A stretch of 64,000 nt of DNA from an uncultured virus (IMG/VR IMGVR_UViG_3300032002_000001) (taxonomy: Duplodnaviria > Heunggongvirae > Uroviricota > Caudoviricetes): the IMG/VR virus record IMGVR_UViG_3300032002_000001. One strand, 5' to 3'. Under the pieces are notes generated by a model that saw only the letters and a list, made by a program, of their open reading frames with translations, searched no databases and was not told where the DNA came from. Shown here one piece after another: positions 20,293 through 49,816 of the stretch. Positions within the stretch are counted from its first letter, which is position 1. Each line of letters begins with the position of its first letter. The translations under genes were made by a program, and so were the position numbers.

Positions 20293-21131
20293 GACTGAGA
20301 CTCTACACACGACAGGTCACCAGACACAACATCACGGAGCACAAACTTCCGGCGAACGTGAGAAAGTTCGTCCACGTCCTTGCCCCACGACCTCGGCCAG
20401 GTCAGTCGCACCACCCTGCGGTGCTTGAATGCCCGCTTGGTCTCCAGGTAGGCCTTCCAGCCAGCGTCGTCGTTGTCGTAGGCGGTGTAGATCACCCCAG
20501 GATCCACCCGGTCAATGAGGCGTGCTTGCTCGGTACTGAGATGACTTCCGTAGATAGCGAAGGCATCCACGCCCACGTTCCAGCATGCGATGGCGTCAAC
20601 TGCGCCCTCCACGAGCACGGCGACGGAGCGGGCTTCGGGGGTGTAGTTGAAGAGGAGTCGTCCGACATCGACTCCAGCCGGGTAGAGGTACTTGGGACCG
20701 GATCGATCCTCTCGTAGTGAACGTCGCACCACACCCAACACCTGTCCGGATGGGTCTCGCAGGGGATAGGTTGCAGCGTCTTGTTCAGGGTCGTACCCCA
20801 GTCGGAAATGAGTCGCCGCAGTTCTTCCCACACGGGTCTCCCAATAACTATGTACCGGTCCCGCATCGAAACGGCTGAGCCATGACTCGGGGTAGACACG
20901 TCCTTGCTCCATCTTCTGCTCGAACCAGATCCTCATCTCCTCGTAGTCGGGTTCGATCAGGGCATCCTCCCCGGTCACCCCACCACGAGCACCACAGGTG
21001 TAGCAGTACCAGACGCGCTTCACCATGTTCACCGAGGCCGAGGGACGAGAGTCCCCGTGCACCGGGCAGAGGAAGGATCGCTCCGTCCCATGCCCATAGA
21101 CGATGGCCTCGTGCAGGGTCATCGCCCTCAC
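20226..21131 (-). CDS. dnaG: DNA primase (zinc finger plus TOPRIM)
   Basis: CPVH..D..PS...CYTC; PKY; LVEGAVD; YDNDDAG; KD. Confidence 0.85.
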   Translation of the reverse strand: MRAMTLHEAIVYGHGTERSFLCPVHGDSRPSASVNMVKRVWYCYTCGARGGVTGEDALIEPDYEEMRIWFEQKMEQGRVYPESWLSRFDAGPVHSYWETRVGRTAATHFRLGYDPEQDAATYPLRDPSGQVLGVVRRSLREDRSGPKYLYPAGVDVGRLLFNYTPEARSVAVLVEGAVDAIACWNVGVDAFAIYGSHLSTEQARLIDRVDPGVIYTAYDNDDAGWKAYLETKRAFKHRRVVRLTWPRSWGKDVDELSHVRRKFVLRDVVSGDLSCVESQSCRSPESTRTQSRLRILSSKST

Positions 21132-21277
21132 AAGGGTGATCCCTCACAACAGCTGTTCTTGTGCTTGCACTCCGGGCACAGCCAGCGGTATTTGATCGGA
21201 TCGAACCAGCTGTAGCAGTTGACGCACTCCATCTTGTGCTCCAGGGGAAGTGGTTGGTCCTCCAGCGCGTACTTCAT
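21128..21277 (-). CDS. 49-aa zinc-ribbon microprotein
   Basis: Hand-translated ...MECVNC...WLCPECKHKNSCCEG. Confidence 0.55.
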   Translation of the reverse strand: MKYALEDQPLPLEHKMECVNCYSWFDPIKYRWLCPECKHKNSCCEGSPL

Positions 21278-21432
21278 CGCCATCTCCAGGGTGAGACCTG
21301 GTAGTAGTGGTGCACACCGTCACAGTCCTCCAGGGTGCACTCCCACAGCCTCTTCTTGTCGTTGGAGAACTCGGTCCCGCAGGGTCCTACGTTCAGGTAG
21401 TGCCTCTTGTACTCGATCTTGGGCAGTCTCAT
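21274..21432 (-). CDS. 52-aa Cys/His microprotein
   Basis: Hand-translated MRLPKIEYKRHYLNVGPCG...WECTLEDCDGVHH; coupled to both neighbours. Confidence 0.5.
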   Translation of the reverse strand: MRLPKIEYKRHYLNVGPCGTEFSNDKKRLWECTLEDCDGVHHYYQVSPWRWR

Positions 21433-22685
21433 AGTGGCTCCGCAGCGTTGACCAGGTCCTCGACCTCGTCGCGGCTGATCTCATCGAAGACCCCGAGGTC
21501 GGGGTCGAACTTGGTGTAGAACTTCCCACTCGGTCCGTGCCGGTTCCCTTCCACCGATATAGCCGTCGCCACGTTGTGGGGTTTCGCGCGCATCGTGCAG
21601 ATCACATCTCCGTCCTGTCCGAGGGCGTCCGAGCCAGCCAGGTTGGCCAGCCTCGGGGGCTCTGATCCGGTCTCGCCGTCCCGGTTGATCTGGGAGGCCA
21701 CCAGCATCGCGGTCTTCTGTTGAGCGGCGGTGAGCTTCAGGTCGTTGGAGATCGAGGCCAGCACCCGCCAGTCGTCTACGGCCCGAGAGCCTCCGTCAGC
21801 CCGCATCAGGCCGATGTAGTCCACGACGTTCAGGTCGTACTCCCCAGCGCTCGCTGCGATCACTCCTGGGGTCACCAGGCCCTCCGCAGGGGTGTGGATG
21901 TCGATGTGTCCACCCCGGTCGTCCAGCAGGTCCTGGAGCACGCCCATGAACCCCTTGTAGGTGTGCCGGTCCACCTTCTTCTCCCTGATGTTGGTCAGGG
22001 TGATCTCCTTGAACTCCTTCCTGCCCTTGCTCACCAGGTAGGTGGCGTACGCCGCGTGGAACCGAGCCCGGACCTCGGCCTCGCTCATCTCCAGGGAGTA
22101 GAACTTCACCCGGCAGCCGTCCATCACCGCCCGCTTCACGAAGTTGACCAGGTGGGCTGACTTCCCGTTCTTCGGTCTCGCAGCCAGGTACCAGATCTGT
22201 CCCGGCCGGATCCCTCCGGTGAGCCGCTGCAGAGAGCGGTAGGGCACCTCGATACACGAAGACCCCGACTCCCAGTCATCTAGGAAGTCGAGGTCAGTGA
22301 GCACTCGCCGGGGCTTCGGGTTGGTCCGGAGCGGTTCGGCCTGCGCCAGTGTGGACCAGGCCTCGTGGATCTCTCCCACCTGCAACAGGTCGTAGGCGTT
22401 GGAGATCGCCTCGGTGATGTCCCGCTTCGCGTAGGCCTTGAACACCATGTCCACCGCGCTCCGCACGTCCTCGTGCTCGGAGAAGGTGAAGTGCGGGAAC
22501 GCCTCCTTGAAGGCGTCCTTGGAGGGGTCGGTGCCGTACCGCTCGTAGTAGTTGAGCAGCCAGTTGTACTCAGCCTGGTACCCGATGAAGTGCTCGGGCC
22601 TCAGACCGTAGGACCGGCCTGCAGTCACGTCGTGGTTGTTCAGGAGGGCAGAGATGGCAAGGGCTTCGCCAGACAGGATGGGCAC
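21429..22685 (-). CDS. dnaB: DnaB-like replicative helicase
   Basis: Walker A AARPKNGKS, SLEM, VVDYIGL, SQINR, LAGSDALGQDGD, NRHG. Confidence 0.92.
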   Translation of the reverse strand: MPILSGEALAISALLNNHDVTAGRSYGLRPEHFIGYQAEYNWLLNYYERYGTDPSKDAFKEAFPHFTFSEHEDVRSAVDMVFKAYAKRDITEAISNAYDLLQVGEIHEAWSTLAQAEPLRTNPKPRRVLTDLDFLDDWESGSSCIEVPYRSLQRLTGGIRPGQIWYLAARPKNGKSAHLVNFVKRAVMDGCRVKFYSLEMSEAEVRARFHAAYATYLVSKGRKEFKEITLTNIREKKVDRHTYKGFMGVLQDLLDDRGGHIDIHTPAEGLVTPGVIAASAGEYDLNVVDYIGLMRADGGSRAVDDWRVLASISNDLKLTAAQQKTAMLVASQINRDGETGSEPPRLANLAGSDALGQDGDVICTMRAKPHNVATAISVEGNRHGPSGKFYTKFDPDLGVFDEISRDEVEDLVNAAEPL

Positions 22686-22742
22686 TTGGGGAATCCTTCA
22701 GTTGTACGGACGGACACACCATACACGGTGTGTGTAGTTTGT

Positions 22743-23126
22743 CTAGACTGAGATGTAGTGACGGACTCGATCCGGCCAGACGTACCTCTCCCGCATGACA
22801 ACGTCACCGGGCTCGTGGTAGAGCGTCTCCTTCCGGAAGACGTACTCCGTGAGCACCCGGATCCCCCCGTTGTGGGGGCAGGGACGGGGGTGGGACTTGT
22901 TGCAGTCGGGGCAGTAGCGCTTGATGAACTTCCCGCGCGGGGCGTCGGGGTAACACCTCAGGCAGGGACGCTGGTCTCGGATCTCATCCAGATCCACCTC
23001 ACGGGGAACCCCACGTTCCCCTCGGGGTGGCTTCTTGGTGATGTGGTAGCAGTCAGCCTCGCGGTGGAACACCTGATGTGATCCTTCTCCCACGAGGTAG
23101 ACCATTGGCATGGGAGGACGGTACAC
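22743..23126 (-). CDS. Cys/His-rich zinc-binding protein
   Basis: FH...DC, PCLRC, CPDC...CPH. Confidence 0.55.
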   Translation of the reverse strand: MYRPPMPMVYLVGEGSHQVFHREADCYHITKKPPRGERGVPREVDLDEIRDQRPCLRCYPDAPRGKFIKRYCPDCNKSHPRPCPHNGGIRVLTEYVFRKETLYHEPGDVVMRERYVWPDRVRHYISV

Positions 23127-23241
23127 CCGCTCCGGACGTGAAGGAACCCCCGGAGCTTCAGCTCGACGGGGGTCCTCCTCAGGCTGTTAGAGCCCACCTC
23201 TTCCCCAAGACCTCTTCCTGTCCAGAGAGGTAACACTCAGA

Positions 23242-23270
23242 AAGTTACAGGACAGCCTAGACACACGCAA
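23242..23270 (-). promoter_or_regulatory. Leftward promoter for the replication operon
   Basis: TTGCGT-17-TAACTT on the minus strand. Confidence 0.5.
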
Positions 23271-23459
23271 CCACCGGGTGTACCTTGCCCGTATTCCCCA
23301 AGTGCCCTCACCTGGACCAGAGAGAAGTTGATGCAATTGTCCTAGACCAGTGAGTACCTCACCCAGGTGAGCGGGTACGGCCCTGGGTCACCAACTAACC
23401 GTAGTACAGGACAACCGAGGCGCGACGACTTCACGGAGTCACCACCCACTGCCTCTAAG

Positions 23460-23473
23460 CGAACATGTGTTCG
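23460..23473. promoter_or_regulatory. LexA (SOS) box
   Basis: CGAAC-ATGT-GTTCG matches the Gram-positive/actinobacterial CGAAC-N4-GTTCG consensus. Confidence 0.65.
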
Positions 23474-23585
23474 TTAGTGACCTGCAGGCTCGCCAAAGGG
23501 TCGGTCTATGTCTTAGACCAGGATGATCTCTCTACTCTCACCAGGTTTTCTTCGATACCCAGTGCCATTGCTGTAGAGAGTAGAG

Positions 23586-23596
23586 TGTGGTACAGT
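23586..23596 (+). promoter_or_regulatory. Extended -10 promoter P0
   Basis: TGTGGTACAGT. Confidence 0.55.
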
Positions 23597-23601
23597 AGTT
23601 C

Positions 23602-23752
23602 CGTAGTCCCCACCCAGAGGCAAAAGTTCCTCACAGTGGTGTAGTGGTACTACCGTCCCAGTAGGGAGCGAAACTACCCCCAGGTAGTTCCCTAGCTGGT
23701 TACCCCCGAAGGATGAGACATATGAGCTCTAGGCCTTCGGGGTTGTTTATTT
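23602..23752 (+). ncRNA. Candidate ~150-nt three-hairpin sRNA
   Basis: Lies between P0 and the hairpin CCCCGAAGG/CCTTCGGGG plus T-rich tail; no credible ORF. Confidence 0.45.
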
Positions 23753-23760
23753 GTGGTGTG

Positions 23761-23771
23761 TATGGTATGCT
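23761..23771 (+). promoter_or_regulatory. Extended -10 promoter P1
   Basis: TATGGTATGCT preceded by a GTGGTGTG tract. Confidence 0.6.
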
Positions 23772-23889
23772 TAATCCATCTCCTTGGGACCCCTATGTAC
23801 TGAGAAGTTAGGCAAGGGGTCAGGAGATAGCCCTCGTGGTGATCACTCACCCGGGGGTTTTTTCATGCCCAAGAAAAGAGGAACAGCTG

Positions 23890-24195
23890 ATGTACACCTT
23901 GCAAGACGCCCTTCAGGGCAAACCAATGCCGGAGGAGTTCCTCCGGACCTGCAGTACCGAAGTGATCCAGATCTGTTACCAGTCCATGGAAACGACTCTG
24001 GAGATCGTCCAGGAAAAGATCAAGGCCACCGAGGCCCTCCTGGAAGTCTGTTCTCCTCTCGGTGAAGGGAAACCAGACCGGGAAGAGACTCTCCGGGAAC
24101 TCCGAGCAGCTCTTGATGAGCTGATCCTCTACACCCGGGATCTCCACGAACAGCAACTCCGGATGGAGAAGATCCTCCAGGAGAGATCCTCATGA
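23890..24195 (+). CDS. Early coiled-coil protein
   Basis: AAAAGAGGAACAGC leader before ATG 23890. Confidence 0.65.
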   Translation: MYTLQDALQGKPMPEEFLRTCSTEVIQICYQSMETTLEIVQEKIKATEALLEVCSPLGEGKPDREETLRELRAALDELILYTRDLHEQQLRMEKILQERSS

Positions 24196-24446
24196 AGCCC
24201 TTCGAGGAGATCGAGGTAGAACGGTTGGCTATCCGTTCTGAGTTCGACCGGTTGAAGAAACTCGACCCGGTCTTCATGACTCGGAAAGAACTCCGCCAGA
24301 TGGATAGGGACTTCGACAAGCTCCTTCGGCGGATCAACCTTTGGAATCACGCAGTTCTGGAGTACGCCATGGAACAAGAGGTGGAACTCCTGGAGGCTAG
24401 TGCTCAACTGAAAGAGGTTCGGGCACGACTCGGTTACATCGACTAG
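24192..24446 (+). CDS. Coiled-coil hypothetical protein
   Basis: ATGA overlap, GGAG RBS. Confidence 0.6.
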   Translation: MKPFEEIEVERLAIRSEFDRLKKLDPVFMTRKELRQMDRDFDKLLRRINLWNHAVLEYAMEQEVELLEASAQLKEVRARLGYID

Positions 24447-24591
24447 ATCTCCTCTGGAGATCCTCAGACCTATCTGGGTCTTTGCATGCTTGACATGGAA
24501 CTACACGAAAGGACAACCCCGATCTGCGGGGGTAGGGAGTTAGCTGTTCCTCCTTACCCCCGCTTTGTCATGAACAGCTAAGGAGAACATC

Positions 24592-24906
24592 GTGATTGCA
24601 CATTGGGTGAAAGTGATCTACCTGGCTCTGTTCCTGGTGGATCTCTGGGTGATGACCAACCTCTGGAATGTCCTCGGAGGTGGGGTCTACGGGATCTTGA
24701 TCGTTGCCTTCGGGATCCTGAACCTCACCATCGGGATGGGGGTCATCCAGATGGCCTACCTCTACTCCTTCCGCAAGGAGATGGAGGAGGAAGAGGACCA
24801 GGAGATCGAGGTCCACACCTTCCACTACACCGTGGAGAAGGATCCCGACTCCAAGGTGATTCAGCTGATCGACTCTCGGGAACCGGATCTACCTCCCGTG
24901 TCATGA
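24592..24906 (+). CDS. Two-TM membrane protein
   Basis: Two hydrophobic helices, acidic tail, AAGGAG RBS. Confidence 0.65.
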   Translation: MIAHWVKVIYLALFLVDLWVMTNLWNVLGGGVYGILIVAFGILNLTIGMGVIQMAYLYSFRKEMEEEEDQEIEVHTFHYTVEKDPDSKVIQLIDSREPDLPPVS

Positions 24907-25139
24907 CGATTCGGGAACAGATCATCACCGTCAAGGTGACCTGGGACGACCTGGAGGAAGACGGCTGTCTTCCTCAGGACGTTGAAGGATGCTGTGGGGA
25001 GGCGTGTGAAAACACGGTTCCCTCTGCCGCGACGAAAGTCGTGGAAACCATGGAGTGCTGCGGTGGATGCCGAAAGGTGGAAGTCCTGCAGTCCACGGAA
25101 CCTCGTGAGGTGCTCAGCCAGAGCACCTTCAACAGTTAA
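24903..25139 (+). CDS. Cys-rich hypothetical protein
   Basis: MTIREQIITVKVTW...CC...C...CCGGC. Confidence 0.5.
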   Translation: MTIREQIITVKVTWDDLEEDGCLPQDVEGCCGEACENTVPSAATKVVETMECCGGCRKVEVLQSTEPREVLSQSTFNS

Positions 25140-25149
25140 GGAGAACTGG

Positions 25150-25494
25150 TTGAAAAGTGTTGCCGATTACCTCGCGGACACCCGCGAGTACATCGATCAG
25201 AAGGGCTGGACCCAGGGTCGTTACCGGGACCTCAACACGGGTGCAGTCTGTTCCCTCGGGGGCATTCAGCAGGTGCTGGTCCAGGATGGTGTGGATCTGA
25301 GCACTGGTCAGGGACTGCGCCTTTTCCACACAGTTGCTGAAGCCTTTGCCAAGGTGGTCAGGACGAGGATCTCATCCACAGCCACCATTGCGGTGTGGAA
25401 CGACACCCCCACTCGTACCAAGCAGGAAGTGCTGGACGCCTTTGCCAAGGCCGAGAAGATCGAGAGGGCGGGTTTCGACCCTGATGCCCAATGA
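25150..25494 (+). CDS. DUF6197-like protein, paralogue 1
   Basis: TTG with AAGGAG; GWTQG...CSLG...WND.P.RT..EVL. Confidence 0.65.
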   Translation: MKSVADYLADTREYIDQKGWTQGRYRDLNTGAVCSLGGIQQVLVQDGVDLSTGQGLRLFHTVAEAFAKVVRTRISSTATIAVWNDTPTRTKQEVLDAFAKAEKIERAGFDPDAQ

Positions 25495-25865
25495 AGCCAG
25501 TCGCGGACATCCTCGCGGACGCTCGGGAGTACATCGAAAAGCACGGGTGGACTCAGTTCACGCTGAGATCACCTGGGCGCAACGTGTGCTCCATCGGTGC
25601 CATCTGCTACAGCCAGAAGTGGTACGGCGACAACGTGCTGGCAGAACGTCAAGAGGAGCTTCAGGCTGTTTCTCGGGCTCTGGTCAAGATCGTGGGCAAA
25701 AGGTCCGAGTATCCCGGTATGACGCCAGTCGACCGGGTGATGGACTGGAACGACGACCTGGAAACCTCCACCCGGGAAAAGAAGAAGAAGGCCAAGCAGG
25801 AGGTCCTGGACACCTTCGCCAAGGCCGAGAAAATCGAACGCGCGGGTTTCGACCCGGACGCGTAA
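25491..25865 (+). CDS. DUF6197-like protein, paralogue 2
   Basis: GWTQ...CSIGAI...WND; C-terminus nearly identical to paralogue 1. Confidence 0.7.
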   Translation: MKPVADILADAREYIEKHGWTQFTLRSPGRNVCSIGAICYSQKWYGDNVLAERQEELQAVSRALVKIVGKRSEYPGMTPVDRVMDWNDDLETSTREKKKKAKQEVLDTFAKAEKIERAGFDPDA

Positions 25866-25947
25866 CAGACCCGGTGGGGTGGGTGACCCGAGACACCTGC
25901 CCCACCGGCTTCATGGAGAATCTCGGACCGATGAAAGGAAAGAGAAG

Positions 25948-26181
25948 TTGGCAGAACAGCGCACCATGAAGGTCTTGGACCGGTCCGGTCACAAGACACT
26001 CACCTGGGATCCCACCGACGTGGGCACCCAGGATGAGGTTCGGGCAAAGTTCGAGGAGATGGTCCAGGGGCAGCACTTCCTGGCCTACACCTTGGACGCC
26101 AACAAGGAGAAGGGCGAGGTGATCCGTGAGTTCGATCCGGAGGCGGATATCGTCCTTGCTCCGCAGAACCAGGGCGGCTAA
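25948..26181 (+). CDS. Small protein ending in Gly-Gly (ubiquitin-like candidate)
   Basis: TTG 25948 or ATG 25966; ...FDPEADIVLAPQNQGG-stop. Confidence 0.7.
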   Translation: MAEQRTMKVLDRSGHKTLTWDPTDVGTQDEVRAKFEEMVQGQHFLAYTLDANKEKGEVIREFDPEADIVLAPQNQGG

Positions 26182-26578
26182 GCAGCCTCCCCCCGAACCA
26201 AAGCCGAGAGGGTGGGTTCTTTCTAAAGACCTGCCCTCCTACGTGACCCCTGAACACCGGGCGAAGTCGCTCCTGAAGGATGTGCTCTCCGAGAGTGAGT
26301 ACAAGGAGTACCAACGGACCGGAAAGATCCTCATCACCGCCTCCGATGGGACGCGGTGGGAGATCGGGACGGACTCGTATTCGGGCAACCTGAAGGACAT
26401 CAAGAATCGTAGACAGATCTGCGCTCACCCGCAGATGACCATCTACGAACGCGATGCCTACGGGTACGTCATCAGTACGGGCCGTCTTCCCTATGCCGAT
26501 GCCTGGGTAGCTCAGATCCTGGAGCTGAAGACTGACGCCGACCGCGTCAGAGAAGTTGGCTACGGCTACGCCTACTAG
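26126..26578 (+). CDS. Cys-containing partner of the GG protein (start uncertain)
   Basis: RAKSLL...ICAHP...LPYADAWVAQILELKTD. Confidence 0.65.
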   Translation: MSSIRRRISSLLRRTRAAKQPPPEPKPRGWVLSKDLPSYVTPEHRAKSLLKDVLSESEYKEYQRTGKILITASDGTRWEIGTDSYSGNLKDIKNRRQICAHPQMTIYERDAYGYVISTGRLPYADAWVAQILELKTDADRVREVGYGYAY

Positions 26579-26642
26579 ATCTACAACTGAATAGCAGGGG
26601 CGGGGTTCTGTCGAGTAACCCCCATTGCCCCGTCCCTGCCTG

Positions 26643-26716
26643 GGGTTTATAGCTCAACTGGATAGAGCGCCGGTCTACGGAACCGGAGGTTGCGGGTTCG
26701 AATCCTGCTAAGCCCA
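26643..26716 (+). tRNA. tRNA-Arg(ACG)
   Basis: Acceptor GGGTTTA/TAAGCCC, D arm GCTC/GAGC, anticodon arm CCGGT-CTACGGA-ACCGG, T loop TTCGAAT; CCA not encoded. Confidence 0.95.
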
Positions 26717-26750
26717 CGCAGTACCCAACACACCAACAAGGAGAACAGCT

Positions 26751-27143
26751 ATGAACAGCTCACAGCAGCCTCCGGAGTTCATCAAGGACCCGGAGGAGAC
26801 CGACAGCCCCACCTGGGCGTCCCTCTTCGGATCGGACCCCGACTACCCGACCGGGGAGCCCACCCTCTTCGAGGCCATCGCGGACGCCTGGAAGAAGTCC
26901 TACGACCAGATGTCCCCGGAGCGGAAGCAGGTGCACGAGAACTTCAAGAAGAACATCACCGATCCGATCACCTACGTGGAGCTCTCGGTGATGATCGTCT
27001 CCCTGGCCCTGCTGAAGCGCAAGCGGGGCTGGAGCCGCAAGAGGACCGTGCTCTGGTTCCTGCTGGCCAACGAGGCCTACTCCGCCGTCCGTAGGCCGGA
27101 GGAAGCCAAGCTGGCCTACAAGGTCATGATCGGGAGGAAGTGA
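26751..27143 (+). CDS. Hypothetical membrane-associated protein
   Basis: AAGGAGAACAGC leader. Confidence 0.65.
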   Translation: MNSSQQPPEFIKDPEETDSPTWASLFGSDPDYPTGEPTLFEAIADAWKKSYDQMSPERKQVHENFKKNITDPITYVELSVMIVSLALLKRKRGWSRKRTVLWFLLANEAYSAVRRPEEAKLAYKVMIGRK

Positions 27144-27146
27144 GCC

Positions 27147-27509
27147 ATGCCACTTCGTCTCATCTTTCTGGCGATCTGCACCTACCCGGTGATCGCCATT
27201 CCGCTGGCGGTGATCTCCATGATCACCGGGATCATGATCGGCTGGGAGAACCTCGCCTGGGCAGCTCTGGTGCTGCTCATGAGCGGGGGGATCTCGGCTG
27301 TCATCGGTGGGTTCTGGTACTTCGACTACAAGACCCCGATCCCGCCGACCCGAAAGGACATCAAACGGGCTCGGGAACGGGCACACGAGGACCACGACGA
27401 GCTGATGATCCAGTTCAAGGAGTTCATGGGTGGGATCCGCGAGGAGCCTCCCAAGGAGCTGGAGGCTCGGCTGATCGAGTACGCCAACGAGAAGAGGAGG
27501 AAGTCATGA
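27147..27509 (+). CDS. Two-TM membrane protein
   Basis: Two N-terminal hydrophobic helices. Confidence 0.65.
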   Translation: MPLRLIFLAICTYPVIAIPLAVISMITGIMIGWENLAWAALVLLMSGGISAVIGGFWYFDYKTPIPPTRKDIKRARERAHEDHDELMIQFKEFMGGIREEPPKELEARLIEYANEKRRKS

Positions 27510-27784
27510 GCCCCGCGTTCTGGATCGTCCTGGGCCTGATCTTCTACGTCACCATGATCTGGATCACTCGGGTAGTTCTTGATCTACTCCCAGCAACCAC
27601 CCGCCGTGACCGCTATGGAGGCCCCGTTGTCTCCAAGGACCTGAAGGTGATCCTGTCCATTTTCTGGTGGGTCACCCCGTTCCTCCTGCTCGGTTGGGGG
27701 GCCAGTTACTCCGTCACTCACTTCATGAAGTCAGCGGAGGCAGTGGCGAGGCGGGTCCGAGAGAACCGGGAGCTGGTTCGATGA
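27506..27784 (+). CDS. Two-TM protein, paralogue A
   Basis: MSPAFW...FWW.P...RRVRENR. Confidence 0.65.
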   Translation: MSPAFWIVLGLIFYVTMIWITRVVLDLLPATTRRDRYGGPVVSKDLKVILSIFWWVTPFLLLGWGASYSVTHFMKSAEAVARRVRENRELVR

Positions 27785-28011
27785 GCGATCTGTTCTGGGT
27801 CATCCTGATGGCTCTGGGCTATCTCGCCTGTTCCTGGGTGGCGATCCTGTGCGCAGTCGCTTCCCGGGACTGGAAAGGCGACAGCGATGGCGGTCAATAC
27901 GCGGTCGGTCTCTTCTGGCCAATAGTGCTGGTCTTCGTGATCGTCTCGGGCTTCGGCAAGTCCGCCAACGCCCTTGGCAACCGAGTCAAGGAGAACAGGA
28001 GGTACGGCTGA
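27781..28011 (+). CDS. Two-TM protein, paralogue B
   Basis: MSDLFW...FWP...NRVKENR. Confidence 0.65.
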   Translation: MSDLFWVILMALGYLACSWVAILCAVASRDWKGDSDGGQYAVGLFWPIVLVFVIVSGFGKSANALGNRVKENRRYG

Positions 28012-28283
28012 TGGATCCGGCATTCTGGATCACCTTCGGAGTGATCGGGCATCTCGTCATCACCTGGATCACCGTCATGGTGTTCATCGCTCTCGATGGC
28101 CCCGGTGGGAACGACGATCCGATCATGTATCTCATGGCCTTCTGTTGGCCCCTGGTGCTCGTAGTCGCCCTCCCAGTCCTGTTCTGCAAGACCGCGTTCT
28201 GGGCCGGGAAACGAATCCACGAGAACCGAAACCCTCCTCAGATCGAATCCGAGACAAGTGAGGGCGGGGTGTACATGGGGTGA
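28011..28283 (+). CDS. Two-TM protein, paralogue C
   Basis: MDPAFW...CWP...KRIHENR. Confidence 0.65.
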   Translation: MDPAFWITFGVIGHLVITWITVMVFIALDGPGGNDDPIMYLMAFCWPLVLVVALPVLFCKTAFWAGKRIHENRNPPQIESETSEGGVYMG

Positions 28284-28732
28284 CCGAGATCCCGCTGGGC
28301 TACATAGCGGGGATCCTCGACGCGAACGCGATCTTTCGGGTTCGCACTACCCCTGGGGGCACTGAGCTACCAGCTGTACATGTGCACGGGCTCCCTATGC
28401 CGATCATGACCGTCCTGGCGAAGTACACCGGGACTAAGGTCACCACGGTGACTCGGGACTACTCCCGGTCTCCGTGTGCCGAACACTGTGATGAGAGACA
28501 TCAGCATGTCGTCTCCATCTCAGGTCGGTGGTCGGTCACGGGAGCCCGTGCCACGGTGCTCATCCACGCGATCCTTCCCCATCTGCAAGCCCAGCGGTAC
28601 GCCGCCACTGAAGTGCTGGCGGTAGGTCTCTCCGCTCCAAAGAAGTCCACGACGTACAACAAGATGGCTCAGCTCGGCTGGCCCATCCCAGCACCACCGG
28701 AAGAAACAACAACGAAGGAGAACAGCACATGA
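28280..28732 (+). CDS. Single-motif LAGLIDADG-like protein with degenerate motif
   Basis: LGYIAGILDANAIF, RWSVTG..A..LI.AILPHL; Cys/His insert CAEHCDERHQH. Confidence 0.65.
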   Translation: MTEIPLGYIAGILDANAIFRVRTTPGGTELPAVHVHGLPMPIMTVLAKYTGTKVTTVTRDYSRSPCAEHCDERHQHVVSISGRWSVTGARATVLIHAILPHLQAQRYAATEVLAVGLSAPKKSTTYNKMAQLGWPIPAPPEETTTKENST

Positions 28733-28833
28733 GCGAGATCAAGACGACCCACCCGGTCCGGAACACGGTCCTGGGGCTCTTGGCCACTGTCCTGCTCACG
28801 GTCCTGGTCATCTGGTACCAGGAGAACCACTAG
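28729..28833 (+). CDS. 34-aa membrane peptide
   Basis: AAGGAGAACAGC leader; MSEIKTTHPVRNTVLGLLATVLLTVLVIWYQENH. Confidence 0.55.
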   Translation: MSEIKTTHPVRNTVLGLLATVLLTVLVIWYQENH

Positions 28834-29149
28834 CAGCGGCAAGACCCATGACGCGCGGGCTCTGCCCTAACGCGTCCTCCGAGGGATGTAGAACCTCTCC
28901 AATTCTGTGATGGCTTCGGCCATCCTGCGTGGGGGGTCCTTCGGGACCCCCCAGAAAGGCAGTCATGCGTCACCTGCTGAACTATCAGTCCCTTTCTTCC
29001 CCACCCGCCCACAACGCTCATCTCGGTTCTCTTTCTTCACCAAACGTTGTTGACCAGTTCTCCATGTCCCCCGAGAGGGGGAGAGGTGAGGTGCGCCTCC
29101 ATGGGGAAGTGGTGGGGGTTCTACACGCCGCTACGACGCGGCGTTTTTT
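28834..29149 (+). ncRNA. Candidate ~320-nt structured RNA
   Basis: Two UUCG hairpins, one GAGA tetraloop hairpin, long-range helices, ends in hairpin plus T6. Confidence 0.6.
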
Positions 29150-29167
29150 CATGTCCGGAGGTAACTG

Positions 29168-29458
29168 ATGTACAACAACGTCTTCGTCTTCCTCTGGAAG
29201 TTTCTCCGCTTCCTCGTGGTCACCTGGATCCCCAACAAGCTTTTGGAGTGGGAGTGCACCCAGACCGGCGAGATCGAGCGAGAGCAGTGGAAGCGATCCG
29301 CTCTGTGGAAGATCCGTCCTCGGTACGTGGGACACATCAAGTACCTGGACTGCGGCTGTGGTCGTCGGTTCGGACGGATCGTGCTCATCAACGGAGCCTG
29401 CACCAAGCACGGATTCTCCTGGCTCGCTGATGAGGAGCTCGATGTCGACCAAGACTGA
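29168..29458 (+). CDS. Hypothetical Cys-containing protein
   Basis: GGAGG RBS; CGC...CTKHG. Confidence 0.6.
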   Translation: MYNNVFVFLWKFLRFLVVTWIPNKLLEWECTQTGEIEREQWKRSALWKIRPRYVGHIKYLDCGCGRRFGRIVLINGACTKHGFSWLADEELDVDQD

Positions 29459-29591
29459 ATGCCAGGAGACCATGCCTTCGAAGTTCGTCCCCGACCACAC
29501 TCACACCTGCACCGGTAGTCACGCCGAAGAGGCAGACCACTACTGCGGGGAGTGCAAGCGATTCTGGAAGCCGAGGAGCGTCTACAAGTGA
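29442..29591 (+). CDS. Cys/His microprotein
   Basis: GAGGAG RBS; H.C...H.....H.C..C. Confidence 0.5.
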   Translation: MSTKTECQETMPSKFVPDHTHTCTGSHAEEADHYCGECKRFWKPRSVYK

Positions 29592-29824
29592 ACGAGATCA
29601 TCCCGCCCTCGATCCTGCATATGGGGGCTCAGGAAAACGTCTGTTCGGACACCACCAATGGCTGGCTTTGGTACTGCGATGTCCACGACACCCACGGCAA
29701 CGCGGACAGCCAAGATGAAGCTGATCTTCTCGCTGATACCCACGCCATGTTCATGGATGACGAAGAGGGCTGCGATCTAGTGATCTGGCAGCGAACTCCA
29801 CACGAACGGAGCAAGAGTGAATGA
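29588..29824 (+). CDS. Hypothetical protein
   Basis: GTGA coupling; WYCDVH. Confidence 0.55.
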   Translation: MNEIIPPSILHMGAQENVCSDTTNGWLWYCDVHDTHGNADSQDEADLLADTHAMFMDDEEGCDLVIWQRTPHERSKSE

Positions 29825-30077
29825 ACACAGCATCCGGAGTCGGGCACGGCGCACAGCCGATGTGGTGATCTCCGGCTACGCCGCGTCCTATGCTCACTTC
29901 CTTCCCCGAGGTGAGCAGGATCAGTGGGGGTTCGGAGGAAAGACCCTCTGTGGCGCTCGACACCGCACTGGTCGCTGGCAAGGCACCGCCAACGACGAAG
30001 AGCGAGCCCAGGCCAACAAGGCTGAGCTCTGCCCCCGCTGCATCAAGACCGCGCTGATCGAGGGTTATCTCGACTAG
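29817..30077 (+). CDS. Zinc-binding hypothetical protein
   Basis: AH...TLCG...LCPRC. Confidence 0.6.
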   Translation: MNEHSIRSRARRTADVVISGYAASYAHFLPRGEQDQWGFGGKTLCGARHRTGRWQGTANDEERAQANKAELCPRCIKTALIEGYLD

Positions 30078-30358
30078 TGCCGATCATCATCAAGCCAGGG
30101 GAATTCAAGATCATCGGAGTCACCTTCACCTCGGCTAACACCACCACCTTTACCTGGGCCGAAGAGTCCAGGACTGCTACGACAAAGGACGTAGAAATGA
30201 GCAGATCTGAACACCAGGTCCACGTCACTACCGATGACAACGAAGAGGTCATTCTGGAGTGCTGGACCTGCACCGGCTTTCCACAGCTGGCGAAGTTGGG
30301 GAAGAACCCCAACGTCACTGATGTCTACAGTGCCGCTGCCCAGCACTGGAACTCCTGA
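30077..30358 (+). CDS. Hypothetical protein
   Basis: Coupled; CWTC. Confidence 0.55.
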   Translation: MPIIIKPGEFKIIGVTFTSANTTTFTWAEESRTATTKDVEMSRSEHQVHVTTDDNEEVILECWTCTGFPQLAKLGKNPNVTDVYSAAAQHWNS

Positions 30359-30690
30359 TGAGCGGCATCTACCCCAAGGCCTATGCGCCGACTACCGAGA
30401 TGACCGAAGAGATGGCCAACCAGCGGGCTAAGCGCTGGGAGGCCCGATACGACGAAGCCCTCGACATGGCGGCTCGCTGGCAGCAGCAGTACGTCGACAT
30501 GCGGAAGGAACGGGACGCCGCTCTGAATCTCCTGGAGGAGGTCCGGGAGGAGATGCGCCAGGAGTTCGATTCTCGGCTGGTCTACGTCCCCAAGCACCGC
30601 GCAGACGGACCCGCCCTCACGGGTCACCCCGACACCATGATCGGTGGTGGGGGAGCCCGCAGACGACCAAAGGAGAAGAACGATGAGTGA
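30358..30690 (+). CDS. Coiled-coil hypothetical protein
   Basis: Coupled TGATG. Confidence 0.6.
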   Translation: MSGIYPKAYAPTTEMTEEMANQRAKRWEARYDEALDMAARWQQQYVDMRKERDAALNLLEEVREEMRQEFDSRLVYVPKHRADGPALTGHPDTMIGGGGARRRPKEKNDE

Positions 30691-49574: not shown

Positions 49575-49775
49575 CTTCCCGGTGAGCTCATGGGGGAGCT
49601 GACCGTGGAGATCACCGTGAATAAGGGTTCGTAGTAGCCCGTGCAAACCAGGAACCCTGCGGGGACCCGTCTTTCCTCTTTTCTGAGGTTCCCAAGACAA
49701 AGGTCTGGGTGAGTTTGCTAGTAAAAACCCGTTGGTGGGTTCTCACTTGGATGCTTTCTGTTAGGCACGGCGATG

Positions 49776-49816
49776 GCCCCCCTCCTTCGGGAGGGGGGCT
49801 GTCGGGATCTTTTTTT
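49776..49816. terminator. Terminator at the convergence of the accessory and tail operons
   Basis: 10-bp GC stem with TTCG loop, T7 run downstream. Confidence 0.7.

What the first reader, a model, noticed from the sequence alone, without database searches (positions are those of the whole stretch)
28834..29149. ~320-nt highly structured non-coding RNA candidate
Seen: no credible ORF in an otherwise tightly packed operon. It has two cUUCGg hairpins (GATGGC-TTCG-GCCATC 28909-24; TGGGGGGTCC-TTCG-GGACCCCCCA 28930-53) and a GNRA hairpin (TCCCCC-GAGA-GGGGGA ~29067-82). Long-range helices are TGTAGAACC/GGTTCTACA (28887-95/29117-25), CTTCCCCA/TGGGGAAG (28996-29003/29102-09) and CATGAC/GTCATG. It ends in a hairpin plus T6. 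The tetraloop identities point to a plus-strand RNA. I cannot match it to tmRNA, RNase P, SRP or intron consensus. Its pyrimidine tracts (GTTCTCC, GTTCTCTTTCTT) are complementary to GGAGAAC-type leaders.
Basis: partly seen in the sequence, partly recalled or inferred. Interest (0 to 1): 0.78.

Follow-up and report, generated by a model that had tools for sequence, protein, structure and literature searches.

The report
Conserved structured leader RNA in soil phage
The flagged gap in this uncultured soil phage holds a real non-coding RNA element of about 330 bases, with hairpins and a terminator preserved by matching mutations in one distant relative; it matches no known RNA family and probably gates expression of the next block of early genes.

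Summary

The decisive evidence is one diverged homologue, metagenome contig L007. Its flanking genes are only 47-54% identical at third codon positions. Against that background:
- The 5' 149 nt are 81.6% identical, including a 30-nt invariant block. The 71-nt linker is at a neutral 44.6%.
- The UUCG hairpin, the GAGA hairpin and the terminator stem keep pairing through 11 double substitutions with none broken.
- Several changes give G-U pairs, which only work on the plus strand.
- The 67-aa ORF that one pipeline called is not conserved in frame or residues.
- There is no Rfam match. No further homologue turned up in any collection searched.

Best reading (about 0.45): a cis-acting structured leader. 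It runs from the stop codon of a 34-aa gene to the ribosome-binding site of the next gene, and ends in the only canonical plus-strand terminator inside a 26-kb early operon. It probably gates read-through or translation.

The global fold is unresolved: competing long-range helices each keep complementarity in L007. The anti-"GGAGAAC" idea is not supported. This is a new RNA family with two members and an untested function.

The parts
28834..29167 (+). Whole non-coding element, from the base after the stop codon of the 34-aa gene to the base before the ATG of the next gene
   Evidence: Homologous to L007:907-1243(-). blastn gives 72.8% over 460 columns including flanks. Alignments A2 and A3.
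28834..28982 (+). Highly conserved 5' domain (149 nt)
   Evidence: 81.6% identical to L007, against 47-54% at third codon positions of the flanking genes. CM R1 scores 179.8 bits here and 181.9 bits in L007.
28850..28876 (+). Hairpin Ha: GACGCG/CGCGTC outer stem with GGGC/GCCC inner stem
   Evidence: Folds alone in both phages. 9 of 10 pairs are invariant and 1 changes G-C to G-U.
28887..28898 (+).
   Evidence: Scored in L007 over 11 pairs: 7 invariant, 1 compensatory (A-U to C-G), 3 broken. L007 can re-pair as 5 bp + internal loop + 5 bp; this re-pairing was worked out by hand from the print.
29114..29125 (+). 3' strand of P1, abutting the terminator
28909..28924 (+). Hairpin H1 (GATGGC-TTCG-GCCATC)
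   Evidence: The stem is invariant in L007 and the loop changes from TTCG to TCA.
28930..28953 (+). Hairpin H2: 10 bp with a UUCG loop
   Evidence: In L007, 5 of 10 pairs carry double compensatory changes, none is broken, and the UUCG loop is kept.
28953..28982 (+). 30-nt block identical in both phages. It contains hairpin H3 (28958-62/28974-78), the GAAAGG..ATG of the spurious ORF, and GTCATG/GCGTCA, which are complementary to the 5' block 28846-28862.
28983..29053 (+). Variable, C/U-rich, G-poor linker
   Evidence: 44.6% identity, which is neutral level. Largely unpaired in the predicted folds.
28996..29003 (+). Mutually exclusive with P3.
   Evidence: In L007: 3 pairs invariant, 3 double compensatory, 1 one-sided change that keeps the pair, 1 broken.
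29054..29112 (+). Three-way-junction domain: P3 (29054-66/29100-12), GAGA hairpin H4 (29067-82), UNCG hairpin H5 (29088-99; loop UGCG here, UACG in L007)
   Evidence: z -4.96 alone. P3: 8 invariant, 2 one-sided changes that keep the pair, 1 double compensatory, 1 gain, 1 broken. H4: 4 invariant, 2 double. H5: stem invariant.
29125..29149 (+). Intrinsic terminator: 7-bp stem (6 G-C), 6-nt loop, T6
   Evidence: L007 has a different 7-bp stem plus T6 at the same place. 4 of 7 positions changed on both sides and all pairs are kept.
29150..29170 (+). Conserved CATGTC(C/T)GGAGGT with Shine-Dalgarno GGAGG at 29157-29161, and the ATG of the next gene at 29168
   Evidence: RNAalifold pairs 29149-29159 with the element's 5' end (28834-28844), with one G-C to A-U double change.
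28965..29168 (+). 67-aa ORF, rejected as a gene
28729..28833 (+). Upstream 34-aa membrane-peptide gene. It is syntenic in L007.
29168..29458 (+). Downstream 96-aa ORFan. It is absent in L007, where the element is followed directly by the homologue of 29442-29591.

Best explanation
The gap encodes a conserved, plus-strand, non-coding structured RNA element of about 330 nt. It is co-transcribed with the upstream early genes.

Its layout, 5' to 3':
- A strongly constrained 149-nt 5' domain (hairpins Ha, H1, H2, H3 plus invariant single-stranded segments).
- A freely evolving C/U-rich linker.
- A three-way-junction domain (P3 with a GNRA hairpin and a UNCG hairpin).
- An intrinsic terminator, followed 7 nt later by the Shine-Dalgarno sequence of the next gene.

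Most likely it acts in cis as a regulatory leader. It would decide how much transcription, and perhaps translation, passes from the first about 5 kb of early genes into the remaining about 20 kb of the operon. Two routes are possible:
- Attenuation, through competing long-range pairings.
- Making RNA polymerase read through the attached terminator.

Shown: non-coding status, plus-strand RNA-level selection on the local hairpins and the terminator, and the position of the element.

Inferred: cis action, any switch between alternative folds, and the signal.
For: 1. Homologue. L007 (DnaB 90% aa identity) is syntenic from window 21128 to 30690. It holds the element at the same place, after the 34-aa gene.

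2. Selection. Identity by segment is 81.6% (5' domain), 44.6% (linker), 70.3% (3' domain) and 53.6% (terminator). Third codon positions of the four nearest genes are 47-54% identical. There are 30-, 17- and 12-nt invariant blocks.

3. Covariation. The chance expectation is 0.39 per pair, so p is about 3e-5. Over all seven reader helices that I scored, 16 of 20 changed pairs still pair (p about 2e-4).

4. Strand.
- UUCG and GAGA loops are kept while their stems change.
- The third tetraloop stays UNCG (UGCG to UACG).
- T6 is kept.
- At least 5 substitutions create or resolve G-U pairs, which would be A-C mismatches on the minus strand.

5. Not coding. Indels of -1, +3, -4, +3 and +3 follow the shared ATG. 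Residues are unlike after MRHLLN. Two of three frames are open in both sequences anyway. Codon score is 0.003.

6. Cis-regulatory position.
- The terminator ends 7 nt before GGAGG and 18 nt before the ATG, which leaves no room for a promoter.
- No sigma-70-like promoter was found in or just upstream of the element.
- It is the only canonical hairpin-plus-T-run on the plus strand between 23 and 49.7 kb. The one other site with a comparably G+C-rich stem is the operon-end hairpin at 49771-49804, whose T run is interrupted.
- The conserved unit extends through the SD. It is then followed by different genes in the two phages.

7. Competing pairings.
- P3 and S1:S3 share a 3' strand, and both keep complementarity in L007.
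- P0 (5' end with the invariant block) and P1 folds lie within about 1 kcal/mol of each other in the window.
Against: - There are only two sequences, so no R-scape-type statistics are possible and the global fold is undecided.
- P1 loses 3 of the 11 pairs scored in L007. The thermodynamically preferred global fold differs between the two phages.
- I found no conserved antiterminator that competes with the terminator stem (inspection).
- The anti-SD pairing CCUCC:GGAGG predicted for the window is weakened in L007 (hand pairing from the print).
- No promoter places the element in a 5' UTR.
- Terminator-like sites downstream are not above shuffle expectation: 10 against 7.4 and 11 against 10.2, both strands. 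A need for processive antitermination is therefore not evident.
- A terminator-ended RNA is equally the hallmark of a stand-alone or 3'-derived sRNA.
Confidence: 0.45

Rival explanations
1. A stable trans-acting small RNA. The about 300-nt structured RNA is released from the early transcript, by processing or from an unrecognised promoter, and ends at its own terminator. It would act on phage or host mRNAs or proteins, for example through its C/U-rich unpaired linker or its invariant loops.
For: - A terminator-ended, stably folded RNA.
- Invariant single-stranded segments and an 11-nt invariant hairpin loop could be seed or protein-binding sites.
- GGAGAAC-type ribosome-binding sites are over-represented in the phage: 35 found against 13.2 expected, with 0 of 100 shuffles reaching 35.
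Against: - No promoter was found.
- The pyrimidine tracts proposed as seeds are not conserved. The linker is at 44.6% identity and GTTCTCC lies inside helix P3.
- The conserved unit includes the downstream SD, which a free sRNA would not need.
Confidence: 0.2
2. Not one RNA but a mosaic: several independent terminator-like or stabilising hairpins, together with conserved protein-binding sites, in the spacer between two transcription units.
For: - The best-supported features are local hairpins. The long-range helices are ambiguous.
- The phage uses a strong UUCG hairpin as its operon-end terminator at 49771-49804.
- The half-site TGACGC/GACGCG occurs three times in the invariant blocks and could be an operator.
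Against: - The three-way junction P3/H4/H5 and P1 each carry a compensatory change.
- The 5' domain is conserved across its single-stranded parts as well, at the level of first and second codon positions.
- G-U-creating substitutions point to RNA rather than DNA.
Confidence: 0.15
3. A translated leader ORF. The conserved GAAAGG-N5-ATG starts translation of an ORF of 67 codons here and 69 in L007. Its peptide is irrelevant, but the ribosome unwinds P3, P1 and the terminator and hands over to the next gene, whose start codon the ORF's stop overlaps in both phages.
For: - The SD-like sequence, the ATG and five codons lie in the invariant block.
- The frame from that ATG is open to the next gene's start in both phages: TGATG here and ATGA in L007.
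- One pipeline called the ORF as a gene.
Against: - Two of three frames are open over this stretch in both sequences, so an open frame here is cheap. Shuffles keep the frame open in 1217 of 5000 and 863 of 5000 trials.
- The codon score is 0.003.
- The ATG lies in the loop of H3 or is paired in the P0 fold.
- There are no protein homologues.
Confidence: 0.07
4. A DNA-level element, such as a homing-endonuclease target, an operator cluster, an origin or a recombination site. The inverted repeats would matter as DNA.
For: - It lies 101 nt downstream of a LAGLIDADG-like gene.
- The minus strand folds as well as the plus strand.
- A gene-content breakpoint lies just after it.
Against: - The UNCG and GNRA loop identities, the T-run and the G-U pairs are all strand-specific.
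- There are no iterons or tandem repeats in the element.
- Base composition is unremarkable.
Confidence: 0.08

Closest known systems
conAn2 RNA of the bipartite processive antitermination system of plasmid pLS20 (PMC8191782; passages read)
   Same: A non-coding region of about 280-315 bp near the start of a very long operon of a mobile element. It lies directly downstream of a small protein gene, has a long-range inverted repeat joining its two ends, and contains GC-rich stem-loops. It acts as RNA in cis on terminators.
   Different: - No sequence relation was tested or seen.
- conAn2's end repeat is 20 bp; P1 here is 12 bp and only partly conserved.
- conAn2's first terminator lies 1.5 kb away. 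Here the terminator is fused to the element.
- The hosts are Firmicutes plasmids, not an actinophage-like virus.
- Downstream terminators are not enriched here.
HK022 put RNA and lambda nut-tR1 (put: PMC9378689, search listing and start of abstract only; lambda layout recalled)
   Same: A structured nascent RNA in a phage early operon, placed just upstream of the first intrinsic terminator that separates immediate-early from later genes.
   Different: - As recalled, put is about 70 nt with two stem-loops, and nut is boxA plus one hairpin. This element is about 330 nt with at least 8 helices.
- No N- or Q-like protein was recognised: 0 of the 54 early proteins searched matched a PHROG family annotated as an antiterminator.
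- The boxA-like resemblance of the linker is recalled only, and that stretch is not conserved in L007.
Terminator-type riboswitches and attenuator leaders (general knowledge)
   Same: A highly conserved 5' domain, then a poorly conserved spacer or 'expression platform', then an intrinsic terminator and the SD of the regulated gene. There are mutually exclusive pairings.
   Different: - No match to any Rfam riboswitch.
- No conserved antiterminator against the terminator stem was found.
- It is intercistronic, with no recognised promoter.
- The regulated genes are ORFans, so there is no hint of a ligand.
Type III toxin-antitoxin loci (ToxI-ToxN; recalled)
   Same: RNA, then terminator, then an ORF immediately downstream. 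The terminator sets the ratio of RNA to mRNA.
   Different: - Antitoxin RNAs are tandem repeats. There are none here.
- The downstream ORF differs between the two phages.

Membership tests
Any Rfam 15 family (4227 models) | Score at or above the family's gathering threshold | tested here: not met
   Window at gathering thresholds: only the tRNA at 26643-26716. Region at E<=10: RAGATH-32 at 11.5 bits against 41.8, and GHRLOS at 10.5 bits against 48. L007 copy: Gl_U2 at 15.5 bits against 100, on the other strand.
tRNA / tmRNA | ARAGORN detection | tested here: not met
   Only tRNA-Arg at 26643-26717 in the window.
Intrinsic (Rho-independent) terminator | G+C-rich stem, short loop, and a T-run directly after it on the transcribed strand | tested here: met
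   29125-29144 has 7 bp (6 G-C) and a 6-nt loop, followed by T6. Free energy is -13.2 kcal/mol, z -3.63.
Intrinsic (Rho-independent) terminator | Kept under divergence | tested here: met
   L007 has a different 7-bp stem plus T6 at the same place. 4 of 7 positions changed on both sides and none is unpaired.
Intrinsic (Rho-independent) terminator | Stops RNA polymerase | not testable with these tools
   No RNA run is listed that holds the sequence.
Riboswitch / attenuator leader | Conserved sensor domain upstream of a variable expression platform | tested here: met
   5' domain 81.6%, linker 44.6%, and a neutral level of 47-54%.
Riboswitch / attenuator leader | Antiterminator pairing that competes with the terminator stem | tested here: inconclusive
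   No conserved competitor of the terminator stem was found. Competing pairings do exist elsewhere: P3 against S1:S3, and P0 against P1 and Ha.
Riboswitch / attenuator leader | Ligand or other signal | not testable with these tools
   The downstream genes are ORFans.
Processive antitermination RNA (put, conAn2) | Several terminators downstream in the operon that must be read through | tested here: not met
   Terminator-like sites: 10 against 7.4 expected (23-35 kb) and 11 against 10.2 expected (35-50.5 kb), both strands. On the plus strand, only 29125 and 49771 have six or more G-C pairs in the stem. The scan covers T-run terminators only.
Processive antitermination RNA (put, conAn2) | Long-range repeat closing the element (conAn2) | tested here: inconclusive
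   P1 is 12 bp in the window. Of the 11 pairs scored in L007, 7 are invariant, 1 is compensatory and 3 are broken; a slipped 5+5 bp version is worked out by hand from the print.
Protein-coding gene (ORF 28965-29168) | Reading frame and residues conserved in homologues; codon usage of the genome | tested here: not met
   Frame-shifting indels, and residues unlike after 6 codons. Codon score 0.003 and GC3 0.60. Only itself among 5.8 billion proteins.
Group I intron carrying a LAGLIDADG ORF | Intron core recognisable; flanking exons form one gene | tested here: not met
   No intron model matches at E<=10. The downstream 'exon' differs between the window and L007. A terminator lies inside.
Type III antitoxin RNA | Tandem direct repeats | tested here: not met
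   TRF finds none in 28834-29167.

The most novel reading that the evidence does not exclude
A new class of large phage regulatory RNA in actinophage-like viruses. Its invariant 149-nt 5' domain would either bind a ligand or protein, or bind RNA polymerase itself in the manner of put or conAn2. That binding would set whether the early transcript stops at the attached terminator or runs on into the remaining about 20 kb of early genes. It would be an RNA-based early-to-delayed-early switch. The adjacent LAGLIDADG-like protein lacks the usual second acidic residue and might be its maturase-like partner.
Probability: 0.2. Interest if true: 0.75.

Novelty: new member of a known kind. Interest (0 to 1): 0.5.

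Why it matters
Timing control in actinophages is largely unknown, and almost every gene around this element is an ORFan. A conserved, terminator-coupled RNA domain at the one internal terminator of a 26-kb early operon gives a concrete, testable handle on how such phages stage their gene expression.

It would also add a structured RNA family that current libraries do not hold.

The case is practical too. A single diverged metagenomic relative was enough to separate RNA-level selection from a gene call that sits in public protein collections.

Tried and rejected
**Homologue hunts that found nothing**
- blastn and megablast against 50,697 phage records.
- tblastn of both flanking proteins against those records.
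- IMG/VR scans with P0002, P0001, a 27-mer, the invariant 22-mer, and the alignment of the gene at 29817-30077.
- The invariant 22-mer in one genome per GTDB species.
- A two-block gapped pattern in IMG/VR: 11 hits, and 0 of 11 passed CM R1.
- blastn and nhmmer against 30 related loci: best E-values 0.13 and 0.44.
- CM R1 over 35 sources (525,783 bases): only the two training sequences scored, and the next best E-value was 0.48.
- The IMG/VR relative G001 (DnaE 50%) shares the replication and structural modules but none of the small genes around the element, and has no match to it.
- L016 has the CxxC gene but a small ORF in place of the RNA.

**Sequencing runs**
- No RNA holder is listed among the 20 runs.
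- In the four runs laid, the pieces over the element carry no differences, so they give no covariation data.
- The 'RNA?' run X20 holds only a 151-nt piece at 29469-29619 and is probably DNA.

**Own genome**: none is held.

**Ideas dropped**
- Group I intron, tmRNA, type III antitoxin and protein-coding: see Membership tests.
- Anti-SD CCUCC:GGAGG closure. It is predicted in the window but weakened in L007 (hand pairing from the print).
- The 9-bp complement ACGTTGTTG/CAACAACGT to the start of P0002. It falls in the variable linker.
- A boxA-like and a rut-like reading of the linker. Both rest on recall and no test was run.

**Earlier notes of this scan**: nothing for this genome or sequence.

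Full report
**Context**

The window is part of an uncultured phage with 60% G+C.
- It carries a DnaE-type polymerase, a primase, a DnaB-like helicase, a tail-collar protein and a 1957-aa ORF in a minus-strand block I take to be structural (the ORF itself was not searched).
- Its DnaE is at most 37% identical to those of Gordonia and Brevibacterium phages.
- No part of a 24-kb stretch, or of the flagged region, matches the 50,697 phage records.
- Genes from about 23.9 to 49.6 kb all read on the plus strand and are small. Of 54 searched, most have no PHROG match (11 of 54 do) and only two matches carry a functional label: a membrane protein and an HTH regulator.
- The flagged stretch is a 334-nt gap between a 34-aa membrane-peptide gene (28729-28833, GC3 0.97) and a 96-aa ORFan (29168-29458). 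It is the largest gap between co-directional genes in my crude gene map.

**Observation**

All features are at the stated coordinates.
- The plus strand folds at z -3.26 (0 of 100 shuffles as good). The minus strand folds at z -3.53, so energy does not pick the strand.
- Rfam gives nothing at gathering thresholds and only two far-sub-threshold matches at E<=10. ARAGORN finds no tRNA or tmRNA in the gap.
- A 67-aa ORF (28965-29168) exists and sits in a public protein collection. Its codon score is 0.003 against 0.18-0.88 for neighbours, and it has no homologue.

**Finding a homologue**

The flanking ORFans have no relatives. The phage is near-clonal in the runs that hold it:
- 20 runs are listed and 19 hold at least half of the sampled words, from 17 studies.
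- In the four runs laid, pieces over the element show no differences.

I therefore anchored on the DnaB-like gene 6 kb away. An alignment-based scan of metagenome contigs returned L007 (8.4 kb, DnaB 90% aa identity).
- L007 is syntenic with window 21128-30690, with protein identities of 33-90%.
- It aligns to 28720-29162 at 72.8%.
- Third codon positions of the four nearest genes are only 47-54% identical, so silent sites are close to saturated and conservation in the gap is informative.

**What the comparison shows**

1. *Segmental constraint*. The 5' 149 nt are 81.6% identical, which is the level of first and second codon positions. The 71-nt linker is at 44.6%, the 3' domain at 70.3% and the terminator at 53.6%. 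One block of 30 nt (28953-28982) is identical, as are blocks of 17 and 12 nt.

2. *Not coding.*
   - After the shared ATG there are indels of -1, +3, -4, +3 and +3.
   - The two 'proteins' share only MRHLLN.
   - Their C-terminal parts are read in different frames across the conserved T-run.
   - The frame is open in both, but so is a second frame. Shuffles keep it open in 24% and 17% of trials.
   - An antisense 52-aa ORF is likewise open in both but out of register over much of its length.

3. *Covariation* (pairs listed base by base).

| Helix | Result in L007 |
|---|---|
| H2 | 5 invariant, 5 double compensatory, UUCG loop kept |
| H4 | 4 invariant, 2 double, GAGA loop kept |
| Terminator | 3 same, 4 double, T6 kept |
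| H1, H3, H5, Ha outer | stems invariant; H1 loop UUCG to UCA; H5 loop UGCG to UACG (still UNCG) |
| Ha inner | one G-C to G-U |

   - Each sub-domain also folds on its own in both phages.
   - RNAalifold on the raw MAFFT alignment finds 78 pairs, 9 with both sides changed. That alignment misregisters H2, H4 and the terminator, so my counts use loop-anchored registers.

4. *Strand.* The tetraloop identities, the T-run and at least five substitutions that make or resolve G-U pairs work only on the plus strand.

**Long-range pairing is unresolved**
- P1 (28887-98/29114-25) has one A-U to C-G compensation but three broken pairs in L007. By hand from the print, L007 can re-pair in a slipped register as 5+5 bp.
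- P3 (29054-66/29100-12) closes a three-way junction. It has 1 compensatory change, 2 one-sided changes that keep the pair, 1 gained pair and 1 broken pair.
It has 3 compensatory changes, 1 one-sided change that keeps the pair, and 1 broken pair. I estimate about 0.02-0.03 for such a match arising by chance at the aligned place in the variable linker; this is my own estimate, not a tool result.
- The element's 5' end can pair in two ways. One partner is CUGCUG in the invariant block (G-U becomes A-U in L007). The other is the stretch between the T-run and the SD (G-C becomes A-U).
- The invariant 5' block can pair either with CGCGUC (forming Ha) or with GUCAUG/GCGUCA in the 30-nt block.
- With helices enforced, the window's alternative folds lie within about 1 kcal/mol of each other. 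L007 prefers the P0 + S1:S3 combination by 6-11 kcal/mol.
- Several mutually exclusive helices that all retain complementarity is what a conformational switch would look like. With n=2 this remains an inference.

**Position**
- The terminator is the only canonical hairpin-plus-T-run on the plus strand between 23 and 49.7 kb. The one other plus-strand site with a comparably G+C-rich stem is the 15-bp UUCG hairpin at the operon's end, whose T run is interrupted.
- It ends 7 nt before GGAGG and 18 nt before the next ATG.
- No sigma-70-like promoter was found in or before the element. Downstream genes can therefore only be reached by read-through.
- The conserved unit runs through the SD. The gene behind it then differs: the 96-aa ORFan here, and the homologue of 29442-29591 in L007.

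**Interpretation**

I consider 'conserved, plus-strand, non-coding structured RNA with a functional terminator' well supported, at about 0.85.

How it works is inferred. The arrangement is a constrained 5' domain, a free spacer, a terminator and an SD, with competing pairings. That is most simply read as a cis-acting leader that gates passage from the first 5 kb of early genes into the rest (0.45). The rivals are:
- a stable trans-acting sRNA (0.2);
- a mosaic of separate hairpins and binding sites (0.15);
- a DNA-level element (0.08);
- a translated leader ORF (0.07).

**Comparison with known systems**
- The nearest analogue by architecture and setting is the conAn2 RNA of pLS20. It is a region of about 300 nt closed by a long inverted repeat, sits behind a small protein gene near the start of a long mobile-element operon, and acts in cis on terminators (PMC8191782, passages read).
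- HK022 put (PMC9378689, listing and start of abstract only) and lambda nut-tR1 (recalled) share the 'structured RNA just before the first early terminator' logic but are far smaller.
- Terminator-type riboswitches share the order of the parts.
- Membership in any of these is not shown. There is no Rfam match, no conserved antiterminator and no excess of downstream terminators.

**Extent of the family**

Two members are known. These searches found no third member:
- the invariant 22-mer is absent from IMG/VR and from one genome per GTDB species;
- CM R1 finds only the two members in 526 kb of related phage DNA;
- a gapped pattern gave 11 hits, and none of the 11 passed CM R1.

Supplements of the 2023 survey of structured RNAs in viruses (PMC10690425, listing only) were not examined. 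They might list this motif.

Noticed in passing
window 28280-28732 (+); L007 1489-1956 (-): The 150-aa protein 101 nt upstream of the element starts with a LAGLIDADG-like motif (GYIAGILDANA). Asn sits where, from memory, the second catalytic acidic residue should be, and it does so in both phages. Pfam gives no hit and PHROG gives only a weak HNH match at E 0.007. The nearest ESM Atlas clusters carry LAGLIDADG_1 or LAGLIDADG_3 in 15-47% of members. It is 81% identical to its L007 homologue. It could be a degenerate, maturase-like protein that partners the RNA.
   Followed up: partly
window 29168-29458 vs L007 ~906: The 96-aa ORFan directly behind the element is missing in L007. The breakpoint lies just after the shared SD, and CAACAAC is retained at both gene starts. 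This looks like a gene gained or lost at a module boundary.
   Followed up: partly
window 49771-49804: A 15-bp G+C-rich hairpin with a UUCG loop lies at the convergent end of the plus-strand operon. It is probably the operon-end terminator.
   Followed up: no
window 26643-26717; L007 3976-4050: The syntenic phage tRNA differs between the two phages. It is tRNA-Arg(ACG) in the window and tRNA-Asp(GTC) in L007, although the DNA around it aligns at 76%.
   Followed up: no
window, whole: GGAGAAC occurs 35 times against 13.2 expected. Start regions share longer boxes such as CAACAACGAAGGAGAACAGCA and AACGAAAAGAGGAACAGCA (families D5, D7, D15). This is an extended, phage-specific translation-initiation context.
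   Followed up: partly
window 25150-25494 and 25491-25865: Two adjacent paralogous genes, both matching phrog_762, share a 70-nt repeat at 86% identity.
   Followed up: no
window 28300-29700: The same sequence is held by 19 soil and rhizosphere runs from 17 studies dated 2019-2025. The pieces laid show no differences. That is unusually clonal for an environmental phage. Diverged relatives (about 81-84% nt) of single genes (27147-27497, 28281-28467, 29862-30096) sit in unlike flanks in the same runs.
   Followed up: partly
window 28808-28966 (-); L007 1111-1269 (+): An antisense 52-aa ORF starts in the invariant block (MTAFLG...) and is open in both phages. Its codon score is poor (-0.23) and its register is broken by indels. 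It is probably spurious.
   Followed up: partly
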